Source: a virus. From it: DNA of 64,000 nt. A program made the position numbers and the translations under genes. Location of the stretch: positions 1 through 64,000 of the IMG/VR virus record IMGVR_UViG_3300038415_000126, one strand, 5' to 3'. The notes below the pieces were generated by a model. It did not search any database. It was given only the letters and a program-made list of their open reading frames with translations, and was not told the origin of the DNA. This document shows positions 19,551-36,380 of the stretch, piece by piece (positions within the stretch are counted from its first letter, which is position 1; each line of letters opens with the position of its first letter).

Positions 19551-20453
19551 TTGACCATGCAAGAGTTCGTATTCGACATGGAGACAAGTGACCCAGACGA
19601 CGTGTTCGCTCTGGCGCTACTCGCTACCCACCCGCGGTCAAAGCTGGTAGGGGTGACCATTCATCCGGGAGGGCTTGATCAGGTTGGGGTGGTTCGTCAC
19701 ATCCTTGGCCGCCTGGGTTGCTCTGGGGTACCTATTGGGACAGGGGCGCCTAAAAGCGCTAAGTCTCGTGTCTCCCAGTTCCACTATGAGTGGTTGGGTC
19801 AGGTTCCAGAGAGTAAGCCTGAAGGAACCGCCACGGAGGTTATCCGGGGCATACTTGACTCCTACCCTCATGCCCATCTAGTGACAGGCGCGGCTCTCAC
19901 CAACATTGCTGAGGCGCTCAAGGCCCTAAGCCCGCGGTTCTTCATTGAGTGGACCTGCCAAGGTGGCTTCGCCGGAGACAACATCGTCCCGCCGGAGCAT
20001 CGGCTTCCCAAGTTCGCTGGTAAGCTCACCTGCCCGACCTTCAACCTCAATGGTGACCCTAGGGCAGCCCAGGAGCTTCTCTGCAGAGACTTCTCTCCCT
20101 TTTGGGTCAGGAGGATGGTCTCGAAGAACGTCTGTCACGGTGTCTTCTGGACGCCCGAGGTCAACGACCGAGTACCCTCTGGGGTTCACGTGGGCCTCGA
20201 CCTCATCAAGGAAGGCATGGGTCACTACTTTCTGAAGCATCCGGATGGAAAGGCGCTTCACGACGTGATTGCGGCTGCAGCAGCCCTCAGCCCAACTATC
20301 GGAACTTGGTCGAAAGTTCACCCCTACCGAGAACGCGGGGAGTGGGGTTGTCGAGAGTTCACCGATCTGGAGATGGCCGCCGATGCACCCGCGCCACCGG
20401 AGGTCATGATCTCGTTCGACAACGATGCTTTTGAAAGGACCCTGGCGAGCTAG
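19551..20453 (+). CDS. Inosine/uridine-preferring nucleoside hydrolase family protein
   Basis: DMETSDPDDVFAL acidic motif, TGAALTN, TFNLNGDP, LHD. Confidence 0.85.
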   Translation: MTMQEFVFDMETSDPDDVFALALLATHPRSKLVGVTIHPGGLDQVGVVRHILGRLGCSGVPIGTGAPKSAKSRVSQFHYEWLGQVPESKPEGTATEVIRGILDSYPHAHLVTGAALTNIAEALKALSPRFFIEWTCQGGFAGDNIVPPEHRLPKFAGKLTCPTFNLNGDPRAAQELLCRDFSPFWVRRMVSKNVCHGVFWTPEVNDRVPSGVHVGLDLIKEGMGHYFLKHPDGKALHDVIAAAAALSPTIGTWSKVHPYRERGEWGCREFTDLEMAADAPAPPEVMISFDNDAFERTLAS

Positions 20454-24237: not shown

Positions 24238-25176
24238 ATGGAAAAGTACCCATCAATCGTTGAGTTGTCAAAGTGTCCTGACATCTTTTCAGTCAAACAG
24301 GTGGTCGCAACCGAGAAGTTGCACGGATCGAACTTCAGGCTGTTCTTTCCACTCGGAATGAAGAGTATCGAGGAGATTGGGTTTGGCTCGCGTGACATTG
24401 AGTATGGTGTCGGGGATCAGAAGTTTCCCCTCGGGTCGATGCTAAATAAGTTCAAGGCCCAAACCGATCTGTTGACTCGCATGGTGGAGGTCATCCAGTC
24501 CTACGGGTTCTCCGAGACCACCGTCTTTGGTGAGGCCTACGGTCCTGGTATCAAGGCCAAGGGGGTTAGATACAGCACCGGACAGGAGCCGCTCTTCAGA
24601 GCCTTCGATATTATGGTGGCCCAGAACTTCGTCACCTACGACCTGTTCTGCGAGATTTGTGACAAGATGGGGGTACCCAGGGTTCACGAGGTTTGGCGCG
24701 GGGAGCCAACCCAGGCCAACTTCGATGCTCTCCTAGAGAAGCCCAGTACCGAGGGCCTACTCAATGGGTTCGGGGACGACAACATCGCCGAGGGGGTAGT
24801 CCTCCGGTCTAACCCTCTCCTCAGGGATGTATTCGGGGAGTGGCTTATCTGCAAGCACAAGTGCGCAAAGTTTGCCGAGGTGGCCACGGCCGCTGTGGAA
24901 AAGATCCCTCGGGGGCCATCGGCGGCCGATGACTTTGCAGCCAGGTATGTCACCGAAGGTCGAGTCACTAACGCCATCGGTCGACTCAATGACTCCGCAG
25001 TTGAGTTGACCAGTACCATGAGGGACATGCCAATCCTTCTGGGGGCGGTCTGCGCCGACCTCGCTAAGGACTTCCCTGAGGATATGGTCGAACTAGGAAT
25101 CACTGAGCAGTCCCTCAAAGGTAACGTATCTCGGATACTTGGCCCGATGTACAGGGGTATGTTGAGCAAAGAGTAG
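24238..25176 (+). CDS. RNA ligase, Rnl2 family
   Basis: Nucleotidyltransferase motifs TEKLHGSN (I), FGEAYG (III), FRAFDI (IIIa), EGVVLR (IV), KHK (V), plus an Rnl2-like C-domain (YVTEGRVTNA). Confidence 0.9.
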   Translation: MEKYPSIVELSKCPDIFSVKQVVATEKLHGSNFRLFFPLGMKSIEEIGFGSRDIEYGVGDQKFPLGSMLNKFKAQTDLLTRMVEVIQSYGFSETTVFGEAYGPGIKAKGVRYSTGQEPLFRAFDIMVAQNFVTYDLFCEICDKMGVPRVHEVWRGEPTQANFDALLEKPSTEGLLNGFGDDNIAEGVVLRSNPLLRDVFGEWLICKHKCAKFAEVATAAVEKIPRGPSAADDFAARYVTEGRVTNAIGRLNDSAVELTSTMRDMPILLGAVCADLAKDFPEDMVELGITEQSLKGNVSRILGPMYRGMLSKE

Positions 25177-27223: not shown

Positions 27224-27306
27224 TCGTGGACTTTACACCGAAAGATAAAGCAAAACAAGTTGGAGCTACGGGCCTTTTGGATTATGAGCGGCTTCCTGCT
27301 GATTCT

Positions 27307-27345
27307 GACACACGCCTGCTAATGATAAATTAGCAGGCGTGTGTC
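27307..27345. repeat. Perfect 17-bp inverted repeat with 5-nt loop
   Basis: GACACACGCCTGCTAAT-GATAA-ATTAGCAGGCGTGTGTC followed by GTTTTT. Confidence 0.9.
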
Positions 27346-27435
27346 GTTTTTATGTTGCAAGCCCAAGTAACTCGTGAGATAGTTCATGAATCACGGAACA
27401 AAGTAGAAAACTGGATCAGATAGTGTATTATTAGG

Positions 27436-27600
27436 GCTCCTCCATAGCCCTTAAGGCGAGGCTATCATGCACTCAGCTAAGTCTGACCCAGAGTGGTTGG
27501 ACCCCATACATTCTCACAATCTGGTCCAGTTTTCTGCTTTGATCCACTGAATATATGGGTTGTGGAGGTGGAGTTGGAGTGAGTAAGTGGCATGTCGTCA
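27436..27600 (+). ncRNA. Candidate tracrRNA / natural single-guide RNA of the Cas12f-like locus
   Basis: GCTCCTCCA (27436-44) complements the repeat 3' ends; ATAGCC/GGCTAT stem; anti-repeat CCCCATACATTC (27502-13); repeat-like GAATATATGGGTTGTGGAGG (27549-68); TATTAT -10-like box at 27426. Confidence 0.6.
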
Positions 27601-27665: not shown

Positions 27666-29639
27666 ATGCGTATGCCTAGTACAAAGCCAAAAGCTGAAGT
27701 AGACCCCGTTGTAGCCGCCACTTCACTATGGTTAGTTGAGGAACTCAGGAATCGAGGGGTTGAAAAGCCTTATGTCAACAAGACCTCTAAGGGGTGGCAG
27801 GTCAAGGATGGGAACAAGCTCATTGGTCGCCCTCGCTCTGAATGGATGGATGAGCGATCACAAGACGCTATTGAGTGTTGTTTCCGTATCCCAGGATCAG
27901 TGACAATCGAACTCGAACCTTGGAGCTGGCATGCTAAAACAGAGGGCGAAGCCGCTGAAGGTCAGCAAGTAGCCCACCAGAAATGGGTGAAGAAGCACAA
28001 GAAAAAGAAGCCTAAGAAGGGCGCAGAGGCGACAGCTACTCAAGATGAAGCCAAGCTCAAGGAGGAGCCGGTAGATCACTACCCAGAACTATTCGAGGTG
28101 ATCCAGCTGGTCACTAAAGGGCAACGAGCTGTAGTCAGATCACTCCTCAAAGAGGAAGGTAGAGAGCCATACCCAGTTTTGGCTGAGGCTATTGGCGCTA
28201 CGGTAGAGCGCGTCCAACTCAAGACCTCGAAGGGCAAGAAGGCGAAAGAGGGTGCTACTCGTAACAAGTTAAGTGACAACCCTCTTTCGGGGAGCTTGAC
28301 CGCTTTTGCTTCTAAACAAGCCTCAGATAAGATGAGGACCTGGCTTAAGAAAGAGGCGGAACAATCTCCACCTTGGTTCAAGGCTAAGAGCCTCCCATTA
28401 CCTAGAGAGTGCTTTGACTTAGTGCTATGCGGACGCGATCTCGATGTAATCCTTACTCTACGAGCAGCTGTCAATGGTCGGTCACCCCACTTGACAGGAA
28501 AAGCTGTTGCAAGAGGCAACTCTCAATGGTCAACCCTTCACAAGATCCTGAAGCCGGGAAGTGAGTACACGATAGGGGGTGCTCGCCTGGTATGGGATGA
28601 TGACCGTTATCGGTTCCAACTTAAGGTGTCCTACTCCTACCCAAGACCAAGCACAAAAGAAGGCGTGGACACTCTTGTAGTCTGCCCTGGTCTGGATTCA
28701 ATCCTACGCCTGTGGGCTAGTAGTGGTCGCGGTGTTGGTAGGGTAGACGACAGCAAGTCTTACTTTGCTCATCGGCTTCAATTCGAAGGTCGGCGGACAC
28801 CTCATAAGCCCACAGCCAAGTCATTGAAACAGCTCAAGGCGTTAGGGAAAGATCCCAACGAGGTATTTATCTACAATGTGAACCAAGATACCCTTCTTCA
28901 GAAGAAGTTGGCTTTCGACGCCAGACGGGGTAGTATGGCTCAACACCTGAACCATCAAGGACGTGGGGCTCGTGGCCACGGTCGAAATCGATTTTTGAGG
29001 ATTAAAACGGAGGTCTCAGAAAAGGAGGCCTTGTTCACCAAGAGCTATTGTGAGCAACAAGCGTCGAGAGTTGCCAAGGTGGCGAGCGGGATGATCTTGA
29101 CTCACGAAGGTTGGGTTCAGAATCGAGAGCCCTATGCTGAGGTGTTACTTCACGATTGGAGCACCCACCTCGCGCATCACCCGGACAAGCGCATTGAGAA
29201 GATCCTAAGACAGTTCCCAAGTGCACTACTCCGTGAGAAGATTATCTGGGCCTTGACCAAGGCTGGAATCAACTACCGAGTACTCAAGGTTGGAACTTCC
29301 CTATGCCCATCTTGCTTGAAAGGGAAGATGGAATTTGACAAGATCTCCGGTAACCACGTTTGCAGCCACGATGACTGTAAACAAGAAGCTCCAAAGGAAT
29401 TCTTGACCGCTTGGGCCACCTTCAGAGCTGGAACGCCGAGCAAGGTGTATGACTACGATGCGGTGAGTGAAAGCTTCCGGAAGGTGATCCGAGACAGCAG
29501 AGCCCGTAAGAATCAAACAACTAACCTGGAAACTTCCGAATCGGAAGCACCTTCAATTGAAGTCCAAGCACCTACCAGAAAGACCACTAGAGATGCAAAC
29601 GCAACTAGAAGAGGTACGTCTCAAGAATCTCATCCGTGA
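27666..29639 (+). CDS. cas12f: Cas12f/TnpB-like type V effector with apparently inactivated RuvC (dCas12f-like)
   Basis: PPWFK..LP; YTIGGARLV...FQLKVSYSYP (WED); GRGARGHGR Cas12f1 hallmark; LREKIIWALTKAGI; CPSC/CxxxxC zinc finger; catalytic positions read C340, H496, E578; adjacent CRISPR array. Confidence 0.85.
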   Translation: MRMPSTKPKAEVDPVVAATSLWLVEELRNRGVEKPYVNKTSKGWQVKDGNKLIGRPRSEWMDERSQDAIECCFRIPGSVTIELEPWSWHAKTEGEAAEGQQVAHQKWVKKHKKKKPKKGAEATATQDEAKLKEEPVDHYPELFEVIQLVTKGQRAVVRSLLKEEGREPYPVLAEAIGATVERVQLKTSKGKKAKEGATRNKLSDNPLSGSLTAFASKQASDKMRTWLKKEAEQSPPWFKAKSLPLPRECFDLVLCGRDLDVILTLRAAVNGRSPHLTGKAVARGNSQWSTLHKILKPGSEYTIGGARLVWDDDRYRFQLKVSYSYPRPSTKEGVDTLVVCPGLDSILRLWASSGRGVGRVDDSKSYFAHRLQFEGRRTPHKPTAKSLKQLKALGKDPNEVFIYNVNQDTLLQKKLAFDARRGSMAQHLNHQGRGARGHGRNRFLRIKTEVSEKEALFTKSYCEQQASRVAKVASGMILTHEGWVQNREPYAEVLLHDWSTHLAHHPDKRIEKILRQFPSALLREKIIWALTKAGINYRVLKVGTSLCPSCLKGKMEFDKISGNHVCSHDDCKQEAPKEFLTAWATFRAGTPSKVYDYDAVSESFRKVIRDSRARKNQTTNLETSESEAPSIEVQAPTRKTTRDANATRRGTSQESHP

Positions 29640-30294
29640 CAGCAAAGCTCCAGAGCTGGTGGAGGGAGAGAGTTGGGCTATAGTCCTAAAGGAGCTAACT
29701 CGCCTAAAGGTAGCTGCTGAGGTCAATGAGGAGTGTATTGTACTCTACCTCTACCAATTGGAGATCGAGGATTCCATTTGGCGGAATGAGTCGGATAGCA
29801 CCAAGTGGAGTTTTGCAACCTTCCTCCGGAAACGTGACATCTACGACCCAACACGATATGGGGACTGCAAGGTAGCTCTCGCACGAACCCCATTGAACGT
29901 GCTGAAGAAGATCGGTCTGAGCGCGGCGGTTCTTGTCACAAAGAAGCTTCAGACGAAGTTCCACACAAAAGGTTTCGACAAGGTAGTTGAGTACATGACT
30001 ACCAACAAGAAGTCCTTCTTGTTGAGGTTGGAGGTTACCCGTCTGATAACCGAAGTTGGGGAAGCCAACCCGGGCTCAATGACGAAGAGGGTAAGGGTAG
30101 ATTCCAGAACTACGGCCAAGGAAGAACTAGTCCAAGCGAACGAGACCATCAAGAAGCTCAAGAAGAGGATTGCGTCCTTGGAGAGTAAGCTCGAAATCTC
30201 TGGGGATAAGAACCGGAAGCTCCAAATTCTGGTTGATGGGTTTAGGTCGGCTAGACGAAGTGGTCCTAAGAAGAGTGGTTCGAGAGCTGCCTAG
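29593..30294 (+). CDS. Unknown basic helical protein with C-terminal coiled coil, overlapping the cas12f-like 3' end
   Basis: ATG at 29593 (the track starts at TTG 29557); lies between the effector and the array leader. Confidence 0.75.
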   Translation: MQTQLEEVRLKNLIRDSKAPELVEGESWAIVLKELTRLKVAAEVNEECIVLYLYQLEIEDSIWRNESDSTKWSFATFLRKRDIYDPTRYGDCKVALARTPLNVLKKIGLSAAVLVTKKLQTKFHTKGFDKVVEYMTTNKKSFLLRLEVTRLITEVGEANPGSMTKRVRVDSRTTAKEELVQANETIKKLKKRIASLESKLEISGDKNRKLQILVDGFRSARRSGPKKSGSRAA

Positions 30295-30552
30295 TAACAT
30301 ATCTTGCGAGCGGTTCGGTGATAGACTAGACCCTGTACCCGCTCGCATTTCACTCTCTTCCACTAGAGAGCCTGTTCTCTGAAAATCTAGCATCTGATTC
30401 CCACGTAGTCAGAAGTAACCAGGTGGTTTGTATCACCTATATGGTTCACTGATCTACCGGGAGTCAGGTAGGACTCGTGCTGAGACGGTTATGCAGACCC
30501 TCTCGCATGTAGTATTGTAAGTGTATAGAACCACTGGGGATCTCATACTGAG
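30295..30552 (+). promoter_or_regulatory. CRISPR leader with multiple hairpins and partial anti-repeat
   Basis: Non-coding interval next to the non-degenerate array end; five inverted repeats; GAACCACTGGGG at 30528-39. Confidence 0.6.
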
Positions 30553-31447
30553 GCCTCAGTGGTTCATTGAGTGTATGGGGATTGGAGCTACCCGAGCACG
30601 CCGTCCCACTTGGCCTCAGTGGTTCATTGAGTGTATGGGGATTGGAGCTAGTTAGGACACGATTCGACGGGGTCGGGGCAGACACGCCTCAGTGGTTCAT
30701 TGAGTGTATGGGGATTGGAGCCGCAACAGCACTTGGCAATGGCGGCTTGAACTGTGCCTCAGTGGTTCATTGAGTGTATGGGGATTGGAGCCGGCTGATC
30801 CACCTTACAGGTAGCCTCGGGGCTCCTGAGCCTCAGTGGTTCATTGAGTGTATGGGGATTGGAGCGGGGTTCGAGAGCGCGAGGAACTCGGGAACTCGTA
30901 TCGCCTCAGTGGTTCATTGAGTGTATGGGGATTGGAGCTGGTTGTTCCGCATTATCGGTGCGACCGGGTCAGGCAAGCCTCAGTGGTTCATTGAGTGTAT
31001 GGGGATTGGAGCTGATTGAACAGGACCACCATGATATTAGAGCCAACGCCTCAGTGGTTCATTGAGTGTATGGGGATTGGAGCCAGATGAAATAGGCGAA
31101 TGGCCCCACCGAGGTGAAGCCAGCCTCAGTGGTTCATTGAGTGTATGGGGATTGGAGCGCAACTGGCTAGTGATTTCCTCGTCGCATTCGGGATGCCTCA
31201 GTGGTTCATTGAGTGTATGGGGATTGGAGCTCAACGATGACGATGAGTTTCGCATACGAGTGATCGTGCCTCAGTGGTTCATTGAGTGTATGGGGATTGG
31301 AGCTCCTCCGAAAGTCACCTCGATTGAGAAGGCAATCGTGGCCTCAGTGGTTCATTGAGTGTATGGGGATTGGAGCTCGTACTGTACCCTGCAGACAGCG
31401 ACATCCGTTGGGCCTCAGTGGTTCATTGAGTGTATGGGGATTGGAGC
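30553..31447 (+). CRISPR. CRISPR array A: 13 identical 36-nt repeats GCCTCAGTGGTTCATTGAGTGTATGGGGATTGGAGC, 12 spacers
   Basis: Repeat starts 30553, 30613, 30686, 30756, 30830, 30903, 30977, 31048, 31123, 31195, 31268, 31341, 31412; spacers 34-39 nt except the first (24 nt). Confidence 0.99.
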
Positions 31448-31482
31448 GATACCGTGGGCATCACAATGGAAGTGCTTCGGAC

Positions 31483-32016
31483 GTGAGAACCTAGGATCAA
31501 GTGTATGGGTGTTGGAGGTCAGGGTGGATGGCCGTCGACGCCACTGCCATGTTTCAACCGATGATTGAATGTATGGGTGTTGGAGGGAGGTTGAGCTACG
31601 CGCGTTAGTTCCGTCGCTAGAATCACGCGGGAACCTAGAATCAAATGTATGGGTGTTGGGGAAATGTCGTTGGTCAGCAATGCCCGGAGGTCTGAGACGT
31701 GGAAACCTGTAATAAAGTGTATGGGTGTTGGAGGAATCCACTGTTTGAACCTATTAAAGGCGCAGCGGATGTTACTAAATGGTCGAGTGTATGGGTGTTG
31801 GAGCACGTACAAGAAAGCTTGGACGACGCGGCGTAGAATGTGGGAACCTGGGATCAATTGTGAGCGTTGGAGGGTGATCATGCCTCTGGTCCAACCTCGA
31901 CCTATCAGGGTGGGAACCTAGAATCAAGTGTATGGGTATTGGAGCACCTCCGTCTCAGGAATAGCTGATGAAACTGCGACGTGGGAACCTAGAATCAAAT
32001 GTATGGGTATTGGAGA
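31483..32016 (+). CRISPR. CRISPR array B: 8 divergent repeats, consensus about GTGGGAACCTAGAATCAAGTGTATGGGTGTTGGAGG, in register with array A
   Basis: Repeat starts about 31483, 31551, 31627, 31699, 31769, 31840, 31910, 31981; unique 32-40-nt spacers; joined to array A by a 35-nt spacer. Confidence 0.9.
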
Positions 32017-32071
32017 CGGTCGGCTCCCGGAAGATGTCCGGTGGTAACTCTCTTATACTTGAGGTGCAATA

Positions 32072-32821: not shown

Positions 32822-33607
32822 CTATCTTGTCAATGGTGCTTGGCATACTAACTCTCTCGAACAGACTGGGCAGTTGAGTGTCTGAGGGCGAAGCTTCAGC
32901 TCTTGGAACGACATGTACCTGGCATCGAAGAGTATCATCCGACCCTCCAGGGACGTCCCGATCCTCAGAAGGTGCTTGAGCACCTCGGTCGCTTGGATCA
33001 TACCGATCATCCCAGGAACAACGCCCAGTACCCCACCAACACCTGGCGGCCTTCCGCTCCCGTGAGTGATGTCCAGGTCTGGGTACAGGCATCGGTAGCA
33101 GGCGCCACCGGGGACAAACTTCGTCACCTGGCCCTCATACCTCGCGACGGCCCCATGGATCCAAGGGATCTTGTACTTCACACAGGCTTCGTTGATGAGG
33201 TATCGGGTAGCCAGGTTGTCACAGGCATCGACGACGATGTCCCACCCAGTCCCAAAGACCCAATCGACTCTTCCATCCGTCAACCGATCTGGATATTCTA
33301 CGACGAGTATCTCTGAATTATGATGACTGACTGCTGCTTCTGCCATCCCAACTTTGAGATGCCCAAGTTGTGTTTCAGAGTAGAGGACTTGCCTGGGGAG
33401 GTTCGAGAGGCTCACCCTGTCATCATCGACGATACCCAGCACCCCAACCCCAGCTCCCGCCAGGTAGAGCGCCACTGGTGACCCGAGTCCGCCAGCGCCC
33501 ACGATGAGGACCTCGCTCTTGAGGAGGCGCTCTTGTCCCGCCTCTCCCACCTCGGGTAACTGAATCTGTCGCTCGTATCGTATTAATTGGTCAGAGGTTA
33601 GGGCCAT
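32822..33607 (-). CDS. ThiF/MoeB/HesA family E1-like adenylyltransferase
   Basis: RYERQI, GQERL, GAGGLGS, DDDRVSLSNLPRQ, DACDN, CYRC and CPVC zinc motifs. Confidence 0.93.
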   Translation of the reverse strand: MALTSDQLIRYERQIQLPEVGEAGQERLLKSEVLIVGAGGLGSPVALYLAGAGVGVLGIVDDDRVSLSNLPRQVLYSETQLGHLKVGMAEAAVSHHNSEILVVEYPDRLTDGRVDWVFGTGWDIVVDACDNLATRYLINEACVKYKIPWIHGAVARYEGQVTKFVPGGACYRCLYPDLDITHGSGRPPGVGGVLGVVPGMIGMIQATEVLKHLLRIGTSLEGRMILFDARYMSFQELKLRPQTLNCPVCSRELVCQAPLTR

Positions 33608-34956
33608 TCCCGGCGAGCATAGCGGGAAACCACGGCTTCTACAATAAGATCATCAGCTAGACGCATAACCGGCTTGTTGTACAGACCGGAAAGTGACAAG
33701 GCTCGTTGCATCCTGAACTTAGCGGTCGGGGTCAGCTTCTCAGGGGCTGCCATGAAGGCAACGAAGGTCTCGGCGAAGTCCTCCTTCTCGTTAGTCTTCC
33801 CATAATCCGAGACTATTTCTAGGTTTTGGAGCTCAGCCTTGTCTTTGGAGACCTTGAGGAGCACGGGATTGTCCAGGCCCATGCGCCTCATGGAAGCGTC
33901 AATCTTCTTCTGCTCAAACTCCCGATCAGAGTCTTTCATGCCAGCCGGACCGTAATCAGGGAAGCGGTCTGGGTGCTTGACCATGAAGAGCACATCTTTC
34001 CCCAAGCGGGTCGGTTTCACTGACTTCCCACTGGGCTCTATGACGGCAGCGCCCAGGCTACACTGACCCAACCAAGTCAGGTATCTAGCCTTGTCGTCAG
34101 GTTCAAGCTCTCCATAGGTAGCCTGCACGTTGTAGCTGTTCGACTTTAGGATCTCGAACAGTCGATGTCGATCCGCTTGATTGACCGTGAGAACACCACC
34201 CTCATCGGACTGAGCTTTCCAACCATTGTCCCATTCTTCTCTGGCTTCAGAAGCAAGATAGCTCAGGTGAATGTAGTGACCAAACTCATGAAGGAAAACC
34301 TCGTTCACCCACGCGATGAATCGTCCCGTACCCTTCCTGATAGTACTACCAGAGAGTGAGATCTGTCTTGTGTTAGATGAGTAGGTCCCAGCAGTATTGT
34401 GGGACATCTCAAGGTCATCATTCGTCGGTACTACCTGAATTGAACTCACACCTTCAGTGAGTAGCTTTTCGCACCCACGCTTCTTGAAGAGCGCATTCAA
34501 GTAGTCGACACCTTCAAGTGTTTCCCGACAGAAGTGGTCTGACATTCGATGTTCGTTGACTACGGAAAATCCACCATAGGTGAACGATGCGGGGGCAACA
34601 CCATTCAAGATGTCCTGAATGCAGGCTCGGTACTTGTCTAGATTCTGCAAGAAATCTTCAAGAGGGGTCTTCCTAGCGAGAACCTCCTCGACCATGTGAT
34701 CCGTCACATAATCATCAGCAAGCCGATCAAGGCGCTCTGGGCAACACACTTTGACCCATTCGACAAAAGGTCTCTTCTTGCTGGGTTTTAGGCCACCCAG
34801 TACCTTGATCCCCTTTTCGTCAAGGGGAGACTTGAGCTTCTTGGCATTCTGATACTTCTTGTTGAAGGCCTCAACTTCTTTGACGGCCGCGTCCCAAAGC
34901 GACACTTCAGCGGTCTTGTATCGGGCTGCTACCCGTAGCGTGATAGGGTCAGTCAT
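33598..34956 (-). CDS. Zincin-like metallopeptidase (HExxH) with N-terminal RVAARY motif
   Basis: LHEFGHYIH; SDYGKTNEKEDFAETF. Confidence 0.8.
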   Translation of the reverse strand: MTDPITLRVAARYKTAEVSLWDAAVKEVEAFNKKYQNAKKLKSPLDEKGIKVLGGLKPSKKRPFVEWVKVCCPERLDRLADDYVTDHMVEEVLARKTPLEDFLQNLDKYRACIQDILNGVAPASFTYGGFSVVNEHRMSDHFCRETLEGVDYLNALFKKRGCEKLLTEGVSSIQVVPTNDDLEMSHNTAGTYSSNTRQISLSGSTIRKGTGRFIAWVNEVFLHEFGHYIHLSYLASEAREEWDNGWKAQSDEGGVLTVNQADRHRLFEILKSNSYNVQATYGELEPDDKARYLTWLGQCSLGAAVIEPSGKSVKPTRLGKDVLFMVKHPDRFPDYGPAGMKDSDREFEQKKIDASMRRMGLDNPVLLKVSKDKAELQNLEIVSDYGKTNEKEDFAETFVAFMAAPEKLTPTAKFRMQRALSLSGLYNKPVMRLADDLIVEAVVSRYARREWP

Positions 34957-36197
34957 TTTCCCACCAAAGTCTCAAATGGCTCGACCAATGCTCTCGGGAG
35001 CCTGTCAAGACAGTAGAATGCGAACATCTCAGCGAAGTTCTCACTAGGTCCACCCTTCTTGGCATAGTTCGTCACAAAGCCTTTGAAGTCGGGTTGAGTG
35101 AGGTCACGAGTCTTCTCACCTTTCATAGACAACCAACCATCAAGATCGATCTTGTAGTTGGTCCCTGGCTTGGATTCGGTGACCATGTGCACTACCCATG
35201 AACCTCGCCCATTGGGTATGGTCTGAGTCACCTGGAACGTCTTGCCCTTGTTGACCACAGTATCACCGATAGCGGGAAGTAAGGCCTTAGTTTCGGATAG
35301 ACCCTTACCATCCTCTTGGTTTTCGATCACACGGTACAATTGTTTAATGTCCCAATCACGACCCTTCATGAACTGGTGTTGATAGCGATGTCCTAACTCA
35401 TGGATAGTGGTTTTCAGGATGTCCGGGGAGGCTTTTGCGTCAGCTCGAACGAACATCTCATCAGAGTTAAAAAGGTAGAAAGCATAGGCGTTACGCATCA
35501 GCTTGTTGGTGACCTGGATGTCTCCGTAGCAGACCTTGCCGAAGCCCTTCGACTTCAGATGTGCTTGAGCCTTCTGGGCCAAGTCAGTAATTGTATCCAT
35601 GACCTTACCAGGGAAGCCCCCAGTATTGACCAGTGTGAAGTCACCCACCTTGATTCGAGTTGCCCCCTCACCCCCTTCTGAGTGAGCCTTACCAGTCCCA
35701 ACGGCCAGTATCGCAACCGCAAGATGGCCCTTGAGTTGAGCCATCCGCTTCTCGTAGATGTCAAACTTTTCGAGGTCTCTTTCAATCCCACGTTGCTTAA
35801 TCCTCGGAAGGCCAACACTGGCATAAACGAGCGCCGCCTTCTCGACTTTCTTCCTCAGGGGTTCTGGTAGGACCTTTTCCTGCAAGATTGAGAGGAACAA
35901 CGGATCAAGAACCCCATTGGCAAGACCTTCAAACCCTTTCGTTGCCTTGAACCAAGCCTTGTAAGCTAGATCCTCAGCTTCAATGTATCCAGGCCACTTT
36001 CGTTCCCATGTATGGGGGCCAACCTTTTCAGCTTCGAGGTACTCGTTGATGACTTTCCGGGCTTTAGCAATATCCTGCTCGGGGATCTCCAATAACGCGA
36101 CCCCAGCTATGAACTTGTGCAGTAAGGCATTAGGGTCACCTACTGCCTTAGCCCGCAGGTACCTAGCTGCTACTCGGAGGCTGATCGGGTCTATCAC
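34953..36197 (-). CDS. Zincin-like metallopeptidase paralog with N-terminal RVAARY motif
   Basis: IHELGHRY; TNYAKKGGPSENFAEMF; start reassigned to GTG (IDPISLRVAARY) by analogy with its neighbour. Confidence 0.8.
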   Translation of the reverse strand: MIDPISLRVAARYLRAKAVGDPNALLHKFIAGVALLEIPEQDIAKARKVINEYLEAEKVGPHTWERKWPGYIEAEDLAYKAWFKATKGFEGLANGVLDPLFLSILQEKVLPEPLRKKVEKAALVYASVGLPRIKQRGIERDLEKFDIYEKRMAQLKGHLAVAILAVGTGKAHSEGGEGATRIKVGDFTLVNTGGFPGKVMDTITDLAQKAQAHLKSKGFGKVCYGDIQVTNKLMRNAYAFYLFNSDEMFVRADAKASPDILKTTIHELGHRYQHQFMKGRDWDIKQLYRVIENQEDGKGLSETKALLPAIGDTVVNKGKTFQVTQTIPNGRGSWVVHMVTESKPGTNYKIDLDGWLSMKGEKTRDLTQPDFKGFVTNYAKKGGPSENFAEMFAFYCLDRLPRALVEPFETLVGK

Positions 36198-36380
36198 CCT
36201 TGAGGTCGGACATAGATAGAATCTCGACACACTGCTCGATGATCCTGCGTACTTGACCAGCAAGGGCGGCCTCAAGAGCGGCATCGACCATCTCTACTGC
36301 TTGATCTAAGGTCACCTTGTCGCTACGGATCACTTCGACCAGATCAACGATAGCTTGCCTCTTTCGAGCCGCGTCCACAT

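What the first reader, a model, noticed from the sequence alone, without database searches (positions are those of the whole stretch)
27666..32016. Phage-encoded nuclease-dead Cas12f-like CRISPR system with a partner gene and a 20-spacer array
Seen: the 657-aa ORF has, in order, a WED-like PPWFK..LP and YTIGG...VSYSYP, the Cas12f1 hallmark GRGARGHGR (432-440), LREKII..L.KAGI and a CPSC/C..C zinc finger. The RuvC triad positions read VVCPG (C340 for D of GxDxG), VLLHDW (H496 for E of xxEDL) and APKEF (E578 for D of NADxNA). It has an about 75-aa N-terminal extension, Lys-rich inserts (KKHKKKKPKK) and an about 45-aa insert after RuvC-I. No cas1/cas2/cas4, Tn7 genes or sigma factor lie in the window. 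Known: RuvC-dead type V/TnpB derivatives work as transposon guides (Cas12k), silencers (Cas12m, TldR) or sigma-factor recruiters (dCas12f). Inference: this is an RNA-guided DNA-binding system of a phage that keeps a homogeneous, apparently still expanding array. It may silence host or competitor genes, or deliver the adjacent protein, and it fits none of those known contexts.
Basis: partly seen in the sequence, partly recalled or inferred. Interest (0 to 1): 0.95.

Follow-up and report, generated by a model that had tools for sequence, protein, structure and literature searches.

The report
Phage nuclease-dead Cas12f with partner gene
A large peat-soil phage carries a miniature CRISPR system whose Cas12f-type protein has lost all three DNA-cutting residues yet is kept under selection with a helper RNA, a dedicated partner protein and a fast-changing 20-spacer array, so it most likely binds chosen DNA rather than cutting it.

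Summary
ORF 27666-29639 encodes a 657-aa protein with a confident Cas12f fold; its closest solved relatives are AsCas12f, SpCas12f1 and OsCas12f. A profile alignment to AsCas12f places C340, H496 and E578 at the three RuvC catalytic positions. None of 93 family representatives has Asp at RuvC-I, and in the window's own clade all three positions drift.

The gene is not decaying: dN/dS is 0.17 against a 95%-identical relative. The module also has:
- a conserved upstream tracrRNA candidate, whose anti-repeat covaries with the repeat;
- an overlapping partner gene (233 aa), found beside the effector in all 10 loci I examined;
- an array of 13 identical plus 8 degenerate repeats.

A 95%-identical relative shares only one old spacer, and other peat samples show other spacers. 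No Cas1 or Cas2 was found, even in complete related phage genomes. No protospacer was found, so targets are unknown.

Best reading: a non-cutting, RNA-guided DNA-binding system of phages, probably a silencer. The partner's role is open. It is a new variant of a known kind (dCas12f, Cas12m). This scan already reported the same family on other DNA (for example e1-5989414 and e1-5982928).

The parts
27306..27346 (+). Terminator-like hairpin (18-bp stem followed by a T run) that ends the upstream transcription unit
   Evidence: The palindrome CTGCTAAT..ATTAGCAG is conserved in L002 and L006.
27404..27431 (+). Promoter-like site (TAGAAA, 16 nt, TATTAT) in front of the tracrRNA candidate
   Evidence: The TATTAT/TGTTAT box is conserved in L002 and L006. 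This is a consensus match only.
27438..27567 (+). tracrRNA candidate. It contains the anti-repeat CCCCATACATTC (27502-27513), a second segment GATCCACTGA (27541-27550) complementary to the repeat's 5' half, and a repeat-like stretch (27540-27567). The ends are not mapped.
   Evidence: The stretch is 78% identical to L006, against 62% and 47% in the flanks, while synonymous sites are saturated. The anti-repeat covaries with the repeat: window CCCCATACATTC with GAGTGTATGGGG, L006 CCTCATGCATTC with GAGTGCATGAGT. The repeat:upstream duplex has z -2.4, with 4 of 200 shuffles as good. No Rfam family matched.
27666..29639 (+). Effector gene: 657-aa Cas12f-fold protein with C340/H496/E578 at the RuvC triad positions, a zinc finger retained, and an extra N-terminal domain (1-73)
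   Evidence: dN/dS is 0.17 against L002.
29593..30294 (+). Partner gene, 233 aa from ATG 29593 (an alternative TTG start lies at 29557). It overlaps the end of the effector gene. It encodes an all-helical N-terminal domain (about 21-160) and a C-terminal coiled coil (171-222).
   Evidence: Homologues lie beside the effector in L002, L003/L004, L006, L007, L008, L009, L010 and Virus Rctr197k. The model has pLDDT 82. Resemblance to the ParB/Spo0J/KorB DNA-binding domain is weak. dN/dS is 0.21.
30295..30552 (+). Leader, with blocks conserved in L002 and L006. GAACCACTGGGG (30528-30539) is complementary to the 5' half of the first repeat.
   Evidence: The complementarity is kept in L006 through changes on both sides (AACCACTGAGAC with GTCTCAGTGGTT).
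30553..31482 (+). Leader-proximal part of the array: 13 identical 36-nt repeats (GCCTCAGTGGTTCATTGAGTGTATGGGGATTGGAGC) with 13 spacers of 24-39 nt
31483..32053 (+). Distal part of the array: 8 degenerate repeats whose 5' half differs (GTGGGAACCTAGAATCAA...) while the 3' half is conserved (GTATGGGTGTTGGAG), with their spacers. Spacer 18 (31805-31840) shares its first 23 nt with the last spacer of L002.

Best explanation
This is a phage-borne derivative of a type V-F (Cas12f1-like) CRISPR system that has lost DNA cleavage and works as an RNA-guided DNA binder.

Proposed steps:
1. A transcript that starts at about 27438 supplies a tracrRNA. Its anti-repeat pairs with the repeat part of crRNAs made from the array (30553-32053).
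2. The 657-aa effector is loaded with these guides and binds matching DNA.
3. Because C340, H496 and E578 replace the RuvC Asp-Glu-Asp, it cannot cut. The likely outcome is a block of transcription or replication of the target, in the manner of Cas12m or type IV-A.
4. The targets are presumably rival mobile elements or host genes, because the spacers turn over quickly and do not match the phage itself.
5. New spacers must come from Cas1-Cas2 supplied in trans, for example by the host, or by recombination between arrays.
6. The partner protein (helical, DNA-binding-like domain plus a dimerising coiled coil) is made from an overlapping gene and works with the effector. It could be a downstream module recruited to the bound site, or a regulator of the locus.

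Shown here: the fold, the lost triad, purifying selection, the conserved gene set, the anti-repeat covariation, spacer turnover, and the absence of Cas1/Cas2.

Inferred: binding without cutting, silencing, the identity of the targets, acquisition in trans, and any contact between effector and partner.
For: Fold and catalytic positions:
- AF2 model pLDDT 84, pTM 0.81.
- Foldseek top hit AsCas12f, E 8.6e-18.
- VIA-align Z 17 for AsCas12f and SpCas12f1 over model residues 74-591.
- Family profile against AsCas12f, E 3e-67, with the triad columns aligned.

Dead site:
- 0 of 93 family representatives have Asp at RuvC-I (H 43, R 33). 72 keep Glu and 71 keep Asp at the other two positions.
- In the window's clade all three positions vary, even between proteins 95% identical (H/N at 496, E/D at 578).

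Still functional:
- dN/dS is 0.17 and 0.065 for the effector and 0.21 for the partner.

Module conserved:
- Effector, partner and array occur together in all 10 loci examined, down to 23% effector identity. In Virus Rctr197k the partner lies upstream instead.

tracrRNA:
- The upstream block is conserved and its anti-repeat covaries with the repeat.

Spacer turnover:
-.

No self-targets:
- None in the 98.5-kb record, and none from the array of the complete 106.7-kb relative against its own genome.

No Cas1/Cas2:
- None here or in the complete relatives.
Against: - No protospacer was found anywhere I could search, so neither the targets nor a PAM are known.
- No RNA data exist for the locus, so the tracrRNA ends and crRNA processing are unverified.
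- Most of the wider family keeps Glu and Asp at RuvC-II and III, with His or Arg at RuvC-I. This could be an altered rather than dead site in those members, as Altae-Tran et al. 2023 (PMC10691335) raise for other branches.
- The partner's DNA-binding fold is only weakly supported: VIA-align Z 6.4-7.4, below the level the tool calls safe for helical proteins.
- In L003 and L009 no significant upstream anti-repeat was found.
Confidence: 0.6

Rival explanations
1. The effector acts alone as an RNA-guided roadblock. The partner is only a transcription regulator of the locus (an Aca- or Xre-like autoregulator) and not part of the effector machinery.
For: - The partner has a weak ParB/KorB-type helix-turn-helix resemblance and a dimerising coiled coil.
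- In dCas12f-sigmaE loci the neighbouring HTH protein binds its own promoter and is dispensable for targeting (PMC13472631, read).
- The gene order differs in Virus Rctr197k, where the partner is upstream.
Against: - The partner travels with the effector in all 10 loci across very deep divergence (23% effector identity). In contrast, Hoffmann et al. report weak co-evolution for their HTH proteins.
- The genes overlap in most loci, which suggests coupled translation.
- The partner family is tiny and was seen only in these loci.
Confidence: 0.2
2. The system still destroys its targets, either through a nuclease or helicase recruited in trans (as Cascade recruits Cas3, or type IV-A uses DinG) or through a non-canonical active site.
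For: - One relative (L010) has a DinG/XPD-type helicase gene overlapping the start of the effector gene.
- Most of the wider family keeps RuvC-II Glu and RuvC-III Asp.
- Fast spacer turnover is typical of interference systems.
Against: - No such helicase is present in this record or in the complete relatives.
- In the window's clade the three RuvC positions are unconstrained.
- The partner shows no nuclease or helicase features.
Confidence: 0.12
3. The effector recruits transcription machinery to its targets (RNA-guided activation, as in dCas12f-sigmaE), with the partner or a phage sigma factor as the recruited component.
For: - The phage record encodes a Sigma70_r2 protein.
- dCas12f-sigmaE sets a precedent (PMC13472631).
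- The partner is helical and possibly DNA-binding.
Against: - The sigma gene lies 36 kb away and is not linked.
- The partner matches no sigma family.
- The dCas12f-sigmaE protein is a distant relative (profile E 5.7e-15, against 3e-67 for AsCas12f).
- Long arrays that turn over do not fit a fixed regulatory programme.
Confidence: 0.05
4. The protein is an anti-CRISPR decoy that soaks up the crRNA or tracrRNA of a host Cas12f system.
For: A phage-encoded Cas9 with a dead RuvC domain has been proposed to act this way (PMC11656645, read).
Against: The locus keeps its own tracrRNA candidate, which covaries with its own repeats, and its own long, changing arrays. A decoy would not need these.
Confidence: 0.03

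Closest known systems
Type V-F1 Cas12f nucleases (AsCas12f 8j12/7wju/8dzj, SpCas12f1 9i8y, OsCas12f 9nzq)
   Same: - Same fold across WED, REC, RuvC and the zinc finger: Foldseek E 8.6e-18, VIA-align Z 17, family profile E 3e-67 to 2e-60.
- Shares the GxGARGHG motif.
- Has an adjacent CRISPR array of 36-nt repeats and a tracrRNA-type helper RNA.
   Different: - All three RuvC catalytic residues are replaced.
- It has an extra N-terminal domain (1-73), two inserts and a C-terminal helix.
- It has a dedicated partner gene and no cas1/cas2.
- The family was seen only on viral or viral-like contigs in what I searched.
dCas12f-sigmaE RNA-guided transcription systems of Bacteroidota, and the CRISPR-array-associated dCas12f cluster mentioned with them (Hoffmann et al. 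2026, PMC13472631; structure 9n9c)
   Same: A Cas12f-derived protein with an inactivated RuvC domain that is expected to bind DNA by RNA guide. Their array-associated cluster is also proposed to repress transcription.
   Different: - There is no adjacent rpoE gene.
- The RuvC/zinc-finger region is full length, not C-terminally truncated.
- There are long arrays that turn over, rather than fixed single guides.
- The relationship is distant (profile E 5.7e-15, Z 13.8), so inactivation was probably independent.
- The setting is a phage, not a chromosome, and the partner is not a sigma factor.
- I could not test whether their array-associated cluster overlaps this family.
Cas12m (type V-M) and type IV-A CRISPR systems of plasmids and prophages
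   Same: Systems carried by mobile elements that interfere by binding and blocking transcription rather than cutting, with spacers aimed at rival elements and often no adaptation genes of their own (PMC11656645, PMC11013384).
   Different: - Cas12m is only a remote structural relative (Z 10.5-11; profile E 2e-11 for one UnCas12m4a chain, 6e-5 to 5e-4 for the other Cas12m chains).
- From my own knowledge, Cas12m uses no tracrRNA.
- Type IV-A is a multi-subunit class 1 system with DinG.
- Neither has this partner protein.

Membership tests
Type V-F CRISPR-Cas (Cas12f) | Effector with the Cas12f architecture (WED, REC, RuvC and zinc-finger/TNB domains) | tested here: met
   Foldseek AsCas12f E 8.6e-18. 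VIA-align Z 17 over residues 74-591. Family profile against AsCas12f E 3e-67.
Type V-F CRISPR-Cas (Cas12f) | Intact RuvC catalytic triad (Asp-Glu-Asp) giving RNA-guided DNA cleavage | tested here: not met
   C340, H496 and E578 occupy the triad columns. 0 of 93 relatives have Asp at RuvC-I. Cleavage itself was not assayed.
Type V-F CRISPR-Cas (Cas12f) | Adjacent CRISPR array | tested here: met
   21 repeats at 30553-32016. Arrays are present in all related loci.
Type V-F CRISPR-Cas (Cas12f) | tracrRNA with an anti-repeat | tested here: inconclusive
   There is a conserved upstream block whose anti-repeat covaries with the repeat in the window/L002 and L006. The duplex is significant in the window, L006 and L007 but not in L003 or L009. 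No RNA data are available.
Type V-F CRISPR-Cas (Cas12f) | Adaptation genes cas1, cas2 and cas4 in the locus (present in many V-F loci, not all) | tested here: not met
   No Cas1 or Cas2 match in the 98.5-kb record or in complete relatives. Cas4 was not searched.
dCas12f-sigmaE system | ECF sigma factor gene (rpoE) in an operon with dcas12f | tested here: not met
   The only Sigma70_r2 match is 36 kb away on the other strand. The adjacent gene matches no sigma family.
dCas12f-sigmaE system | Fixed chimeric single guide RNA instead of a CRISPR array | tested here: not met
   A long array with spacer turnover is present. A repeat-like stretch fused behind the tracrRNA candidate (27540-27567) could be a natural single guide, but its 'guide' part is poorly conserved and matches nothing.
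dCas12f-sigmaE system | C-terminal truncation that removes part of the RuvC site (as described in PMC13472631) | tested here: not met
   The model aligns to AsCas12f through its C-terminal RuvC/zinc-finger region (residues to 591), and all four zinc-finger Cys are kept.
Cas12k / type V-K CAST | Tn7-like tnsB, tnsC and tniQ genes next to the effector | not tested
   No model search for Tns proteins was run. The ten neighbouring ORFs I scanned gave ThiF, RNA ligase, nucleoside hydrolase, a sub-threshold DUF4160 match or nothing.
TldR (TnpB-like nuclease-dead repressors) | TnpB-derived protein with an omega-RNA and a fixed guide, no CRISPR array, next to fliC or oppF | tested here: not met
   A CRISPR array is present. 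The nearest relatives are Cas12f1 proteins, not TnpB (TnpB chains E 1.4e-11 or weaker).

The most novel reading that the evidence does not exclude
The partner is the working end of the system. The dead Cas12f acts only as a programmable address, and it brings a dimeric, ParB/KorB-like DNA-binding protein to the target. There the partner bridges, spreads on or clamps DNA, and so shuts down a rival phage or a host locus. This would be a two-component, RNA-guided effector-delivery system that is specific to phages, and a new subtype-level variant of type V.
Probability: 0.25. Interest if true: 0.85.

Novelty: new variant of a known kind. Interest (0 to 1): 0.6.

Why it matters
Natural nuclease-dead Cas12 proteins have so far been tied to transposons (Cas12k), plasmids (Cas12m) and chromosomal regulation (dCas12f-sigmaE, TldR). 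A family carried by phages, which keeps long changing arrays without its own Cas1-Cas2 and always travels with one unknown partner protein, would add another case of CRISPR reuse by mobile elements. It raises two testable questions. How do phages use binding-only CRISPR against hosts or rivals? What does the partner add? A compact programmable binder with a natural accessory module could also be useful as a tool.

Tried and rejected
Protospacer searches, all negative:
- Window and L002 spacers against the 98.5-kb record and the loci held.
- The whole array against INPHARED phages.
- The array against the records of L002, L003, L004 and Rctr197k.
- The array of the complete relative G002 against five phage records, including its own genome.
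- Four exact 22-mers against IMG/VR, two from the window and two from G002. Only the arrays themselves matched.
- The array against 401 genomes of the phylum of the fen MAG that holds L010.

Putative guide. The 'guide' behind the repeat-like stretch at 27568 matches nothing in the record.

Expression. No RNA holder was listed for the locus.

Family and fold searches that gave nothing useful:
- Pfam found nothing for the effector; NCBIfam gave only chance-level hits; PHROGs gave one weak match to a family of unknown function (phrog_19034, E 0.024). PADLOC gave only local Cas12f/Cas12u3 hits, E 2e-4 to 3e-3.
- Partner: no Pfam, NCBIfam or PADLOC family; PHROGs gave only weak hits (E 0.09 or worse). 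PDB sequence hits were coiled coils only. Foldseek found no match with E <= 0.001.
- No Rfam family in the locus.
- The protein atlas gave nothing usable for the N-terminal domain.

RNA fold. The single-sequence fold of the tracrRNA region is not better than shuffles (z -0.27).

Decaying-relic reading. Rejected because of dN/dS and the conserved gene set.

- The look-up of encoding contigs and complex prediction were closed, so contexts of most family representatives and effector-partner contact were not tested.
- The wider alignments could not seed search for related loci.
- Al-Shayeb et al. 2022 (Cell), the main survey of virus-encoded CRISPR systems, is not held. I cannot exclude that it describes this family.

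Full report
**What is there.** The window is the first 64 kb of a 98.5-kb linear IMG/VR virus record that CheckV rates 19% complete, so it is a fragment of a much larger phage genome. Near-identical DNA is held by peat metagenomes from several studies. Two runs, one landfill and one groundwater, hold about a quarter of its sampled words. The finding covers a compact module on the + strand:
- a strong terminator-like hairpin (27306-27346) that closes the upstream unit, then a promoter-like site (27404-27431);
- a conserved non-coding block (about 27438-27567);
- a 657-aa ORF (27666-29639);
- an overlapping 233-aa ORF (29593-30294);
- a conserved leader (30295-30552);
- a CRISPR array of 13 identical 36-nt repeats followed by 8 degenerate repeats (30553-32016).

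**The effector.** Single-sequence searches give only weak, local Cas12f hits, and Pfam gives none. An exhaustive search found 102 cluster representatives.
- With their alignment, AlphaFold2 gave a confident model (pLDDT 84, pTM 0.81).
- Foldseek ranks AsCas12f first (E 8.6e-18), followed by SpCas12f1, OsCas12f, Un1Cas12f1 and the sigmaE-linked dCas12f.
- VIA-align gives Z 17 for AsCas12f and SpCas12f1 over model residues 74-591.
- The family profile matches AsCas12f at E 3e-67 over almost its full length. It matches the sigmaE-linked dCas12f at only 5.7e-15 and TnpB or Cas12m more weakly still.

So this is a Cas12f1-type protein, and its inactivation is probably independent of the sigmaE lineage. 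Residues 1-73 form an extra, confidently folded N-terminal domain with no match I could find. The Lys-rich segment and the insert after RuvC-I are low-confidence and missing from relatives.

**The catalytic site.** The profile-to-AsCas12f alignment places C340 on the Asp of GIDLG, H496 on the Glu of MEDL and E578 on the Asp of NADYNA.
- Across 93 representatives none has Asp at RuvC-I (His 43, Arg 33). 72 keep Glu and 71 keep Asp at the other two positions.
- In the window's own clade all three positions drift. They read C/V/L at the first, H/N/S/D/V/A at the second and E/D/T/G/V at the third.
- Positions 496 and 578 differ even between proteins that are 95% identical.
- D497 is the non-catalytic Asp of the 'ED' pair that AsCas12f also has.

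The four zinc-finger cysteines are kept. The gene is under purifying selection, with dN/dS 0.17 against L002 and 0.065 against L006. It is a maintained protein without a RuvC active site, not a pseudogene.

**The partner.** The 233-aa ORF has no family in Pfam, NCBIfam or PADLOC, and PHROGs gave only weak hits. Its own family is tiny: eight clusters, five of them on contigs of 53-107 kb and three seen only on short contigs. A homologue lies next to the effector in every related locus I could read.
- L002: effector 95% identical.
- L006: 71%.
- L003/L004: 32%.
- L007: 30%.
- L008: 27%.
- L009: 24%; partner detected by hhalign at 97.6% probability.
- L010, a fen MAG contig.
- Virus Rctr197k (KX853510): 23%; hhalign 95.8% probability. 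Here the partner lies upstream of the effector.

The partner's dN/dS is 0.21. The model (pLDDT 82) has a helical domain at about 21-160 and a long C-terminal coiled coil at 171-222. Three weak, concordant leads point to the DNA-binding domain of ParB, Spo0J, Noc or KorB:
- atlas structure rows carrying HTH_ParB;
- Foldseek rows at E around 1-4;
- VIA-align Z 6.4-7.4.

These values are below what the tool calls safe for helical proteins, so the fold assignment is a lead and not a result. The complex predictor was closed, so contact with the effector is untested.

**The RNAs.** The array reads on the + strand. The evidence is fourfold:
- The 3' end of the repeat (TGGAGC) is shared with distant relatives.
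- The degenerate repeats lie at the far end.
- A conserved leader precedes the first repeat.
- The candidate anti-repeat lies on the + strand.

The upstream block 27420-27560 is 78% identical between the window and L006. Its flanks are 62% and 47% identical, and synonymous sites between the two effector genes are saturated.

Within the block, CCCCATACATTC (27502-27513) pairs with the repeat core GAGTGTATGGGG. In L006 the repeat core is GAGTGCATGAGT and the upstream element reads CCTCATGCATTC, so pairing is kept through changes on both sides. The predicted repeat:upstream duplex is stronger than shuffled repeats in the window (z -2.4), L006 (z -2.7) and L007 (z -2.9), but not in L003 or L009.

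Directly behind lies a stretch that resembles the repeat itself (27540-27567). An earlier first-stage note (e1-6072121) read this as a natural single guide. I saw it independently. However, the following 'guide' is poorly conserved, carries a 12-nt deletion in one peat population and matches nothing in the record. That reading stays open. No RNA run is available.

**Spacer dynamics and adaptation.** L002, whose effector is 95% identical, has 20 repeats with entirely different spacers. The one exception is its last spacer, whose first 23 nt equal the window's spacer 18. This is the pattern expected from additions at the leader end over a shared old trailer.

Contigs from other peat, landfill and groundwater samples carry the effector region at 95-100% identity, yet different sequences follow the same repeats. 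No Cas1 or Cas2 is found in this record. None is found in two related phage genomes rated 99-100% complete, or in the 197-kb Rctr197k record. Acquisition therefore has to happen in trans or by recombination.

**Targets.** I found none. The searches covered the phage itself, related phages, INPHARED, four exact seeds against IMG/VR, and 401 genomes of one candidate host phylum. The array of the complete relative does not target its own genome, which argues against a purely self-regulatory role for the arrays.

**Where the family lives.**
- Members I could place sit on viral records or large unbinned contigs: 62-237 kb contigs, Virus Rctr197k, and IMG/VR records.
- One scan of 185,579 species genomes with the [HYW]QG[KR]GARGH pattern returned a single 4.5-kb contig of a fen MAG.
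- Among 301 genomes searched in that MAG's phylum, only the MAG itself held a true member; the other matches were ordinary TnpBs.

**How it most likely works.** An RNA-guided binder made of effector, tracrRNA and crRNA occupies matching DNA of rival elements or the host without cutting. This blocks transcription or replication, as shown for Cas12m and type IV-A (PMC11013384, PMC11656645). The partner acts with it. I put 0.6 on non-cutting, guide-dependent binding as the core activity.

How the partner contributes is open. About 0.25 goes to a delivered effector module, which is a sub-reading of the 0.6 and not an addition to it, and about 0.2 to a locus regulator. The remaining weight goes to recruited degradation (0.12), activation (0.05) and an anti-CRISPR decoy (0.03).

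**Comparison and novelty.** By fold and sequence this is a Cas12f1 derivative, but it fails the defining catalytic feature of type V-F. It is not a member of the dCas12f-sigmaE kind: there is no linked rpoE, it is not truncated, it has arrays instead of fixed guides, and the sequence is distant.

The concept is known. Hoffmann et al. mention a CRISPR-associated dCas12f cluster with a proposed repressor role (PMC13472631). Altae-Tran et al. note Cas12f branches with altered catalytic sites (PMC10691335). A glacier-foreland study saw roughly 700-aa Cas12f-like proteins in huge phages but did not examine their active sites or neighbours (PMC11748809).

I found no description of the phage-restricted family with its obligate partner. 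I could not read Al-Shayeb et al. 2022, the main survey. This scan has already reported the same kind of system on other DNA: 32 notes in at least 23 genomes, including a near-identical locus (e1-5989414) and the 107-kb relative (e1-5982928). Those are unchecked AI notes and not independent evidence, but they mean this window is a further member and not a first sighting. I class it as a new variant of a known kind, with interest 0.6.

Noticed in passing
L010:98-4221: In a fen MAG contig (PMZA01000373.1) a DinG/XPD-type helicase gene (Helicase_C_2, E 1.6e-42) overlaps the start of a gene of the same dCas12f family, which is followed by the partner gene. This recalls type IV-A. No such helicase occurs in the window's record, in the three related IMG/VR records searched (two rated 99-100% complete), or in Rctr197k.
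   Followed up: partly
L009:5539-7793: The effector and the partner of this distant relative begin with the same peptide, MCAMARQ(S/P)SET. This may be a shared N-terminal signal, or a duplicated start region.
   Followed up: no
P0004, P0005, P0007, P0008, P0009 and L010:2043-3635: Several relatives carry a conserved N-terminal peptide, G(D/A)LHSPxGEAxxHSAN, in front of the extra N-terminal domain. The window protein lacks it.
   Followed up: no
window 30528-30565: GAACCACTGGGG, just upstream of the array, is complementary to the 5' half of the first repeat. In L006 the pairing is kept through changes on both sides. This is a conserved leader-repeat hairpin of unknown role.
   Followed up: partly
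L006:4800-4860 and window 30308-30345: L006 has a lone repeat right after the partner gene, followed by sequence that is conserved in the window and L002, where the repeat itself is missing. This may be an old fixed guide unit.
   Followed up: no
window 31483-32016: The eight distal repeats keep the 3' half of the repeat but have a different 5' half (GTGGGAACCTAGAATCAA instead of GCCTCAGTGGTTCATTGA). The array is therefore a hybrid of two repeat types.
   Followed up: partly
L026:556-1212 (G002): The array of the complete 106.7-kb relative runs across the ends of the contig, so the 'direct terminal repeat' call may rest on CRISPR units. It also contains the same 37-nt spacer twice.
   Followed up: no
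L007:206-385: A second, unrelated array of 37-nt repeats (GTCTCGATCCCAACGAGATCGAGCATCTTTCGCGACC) lies upstream of the dCas12f-family gene on this contig.
   Followed up: no
window 32822-33607 (-), 24238-25176 (+), 19551-20453 (+): Nearby phage genes encode a ThiF-family E1-like enzyme (E 4e-72), an RNA ligase and an inosine-uridine nucleoside hydrolase.
   Followed up: no
window 33598-36284 (-): Two adjacent proteins of about 450 aa contain HExxH motifs (HEFGH, HELGH). Both carry the peptide DPIxLRVAARY: at the very start of the first (MTDPITLRVAARY), and about 30 residues inside the listed ORF of the second, which suggests a later true start. Other first-stage notes describe this as one of two peptide tags shared by many proteins of this phage.
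   Followed up: no
G000 record 67952-68158 (-), beyond the window: A Sigma70_r2 match (E 2.1e-6) lies 36 kb from the dCas12f module and is not linked to it.
   Followed up: no
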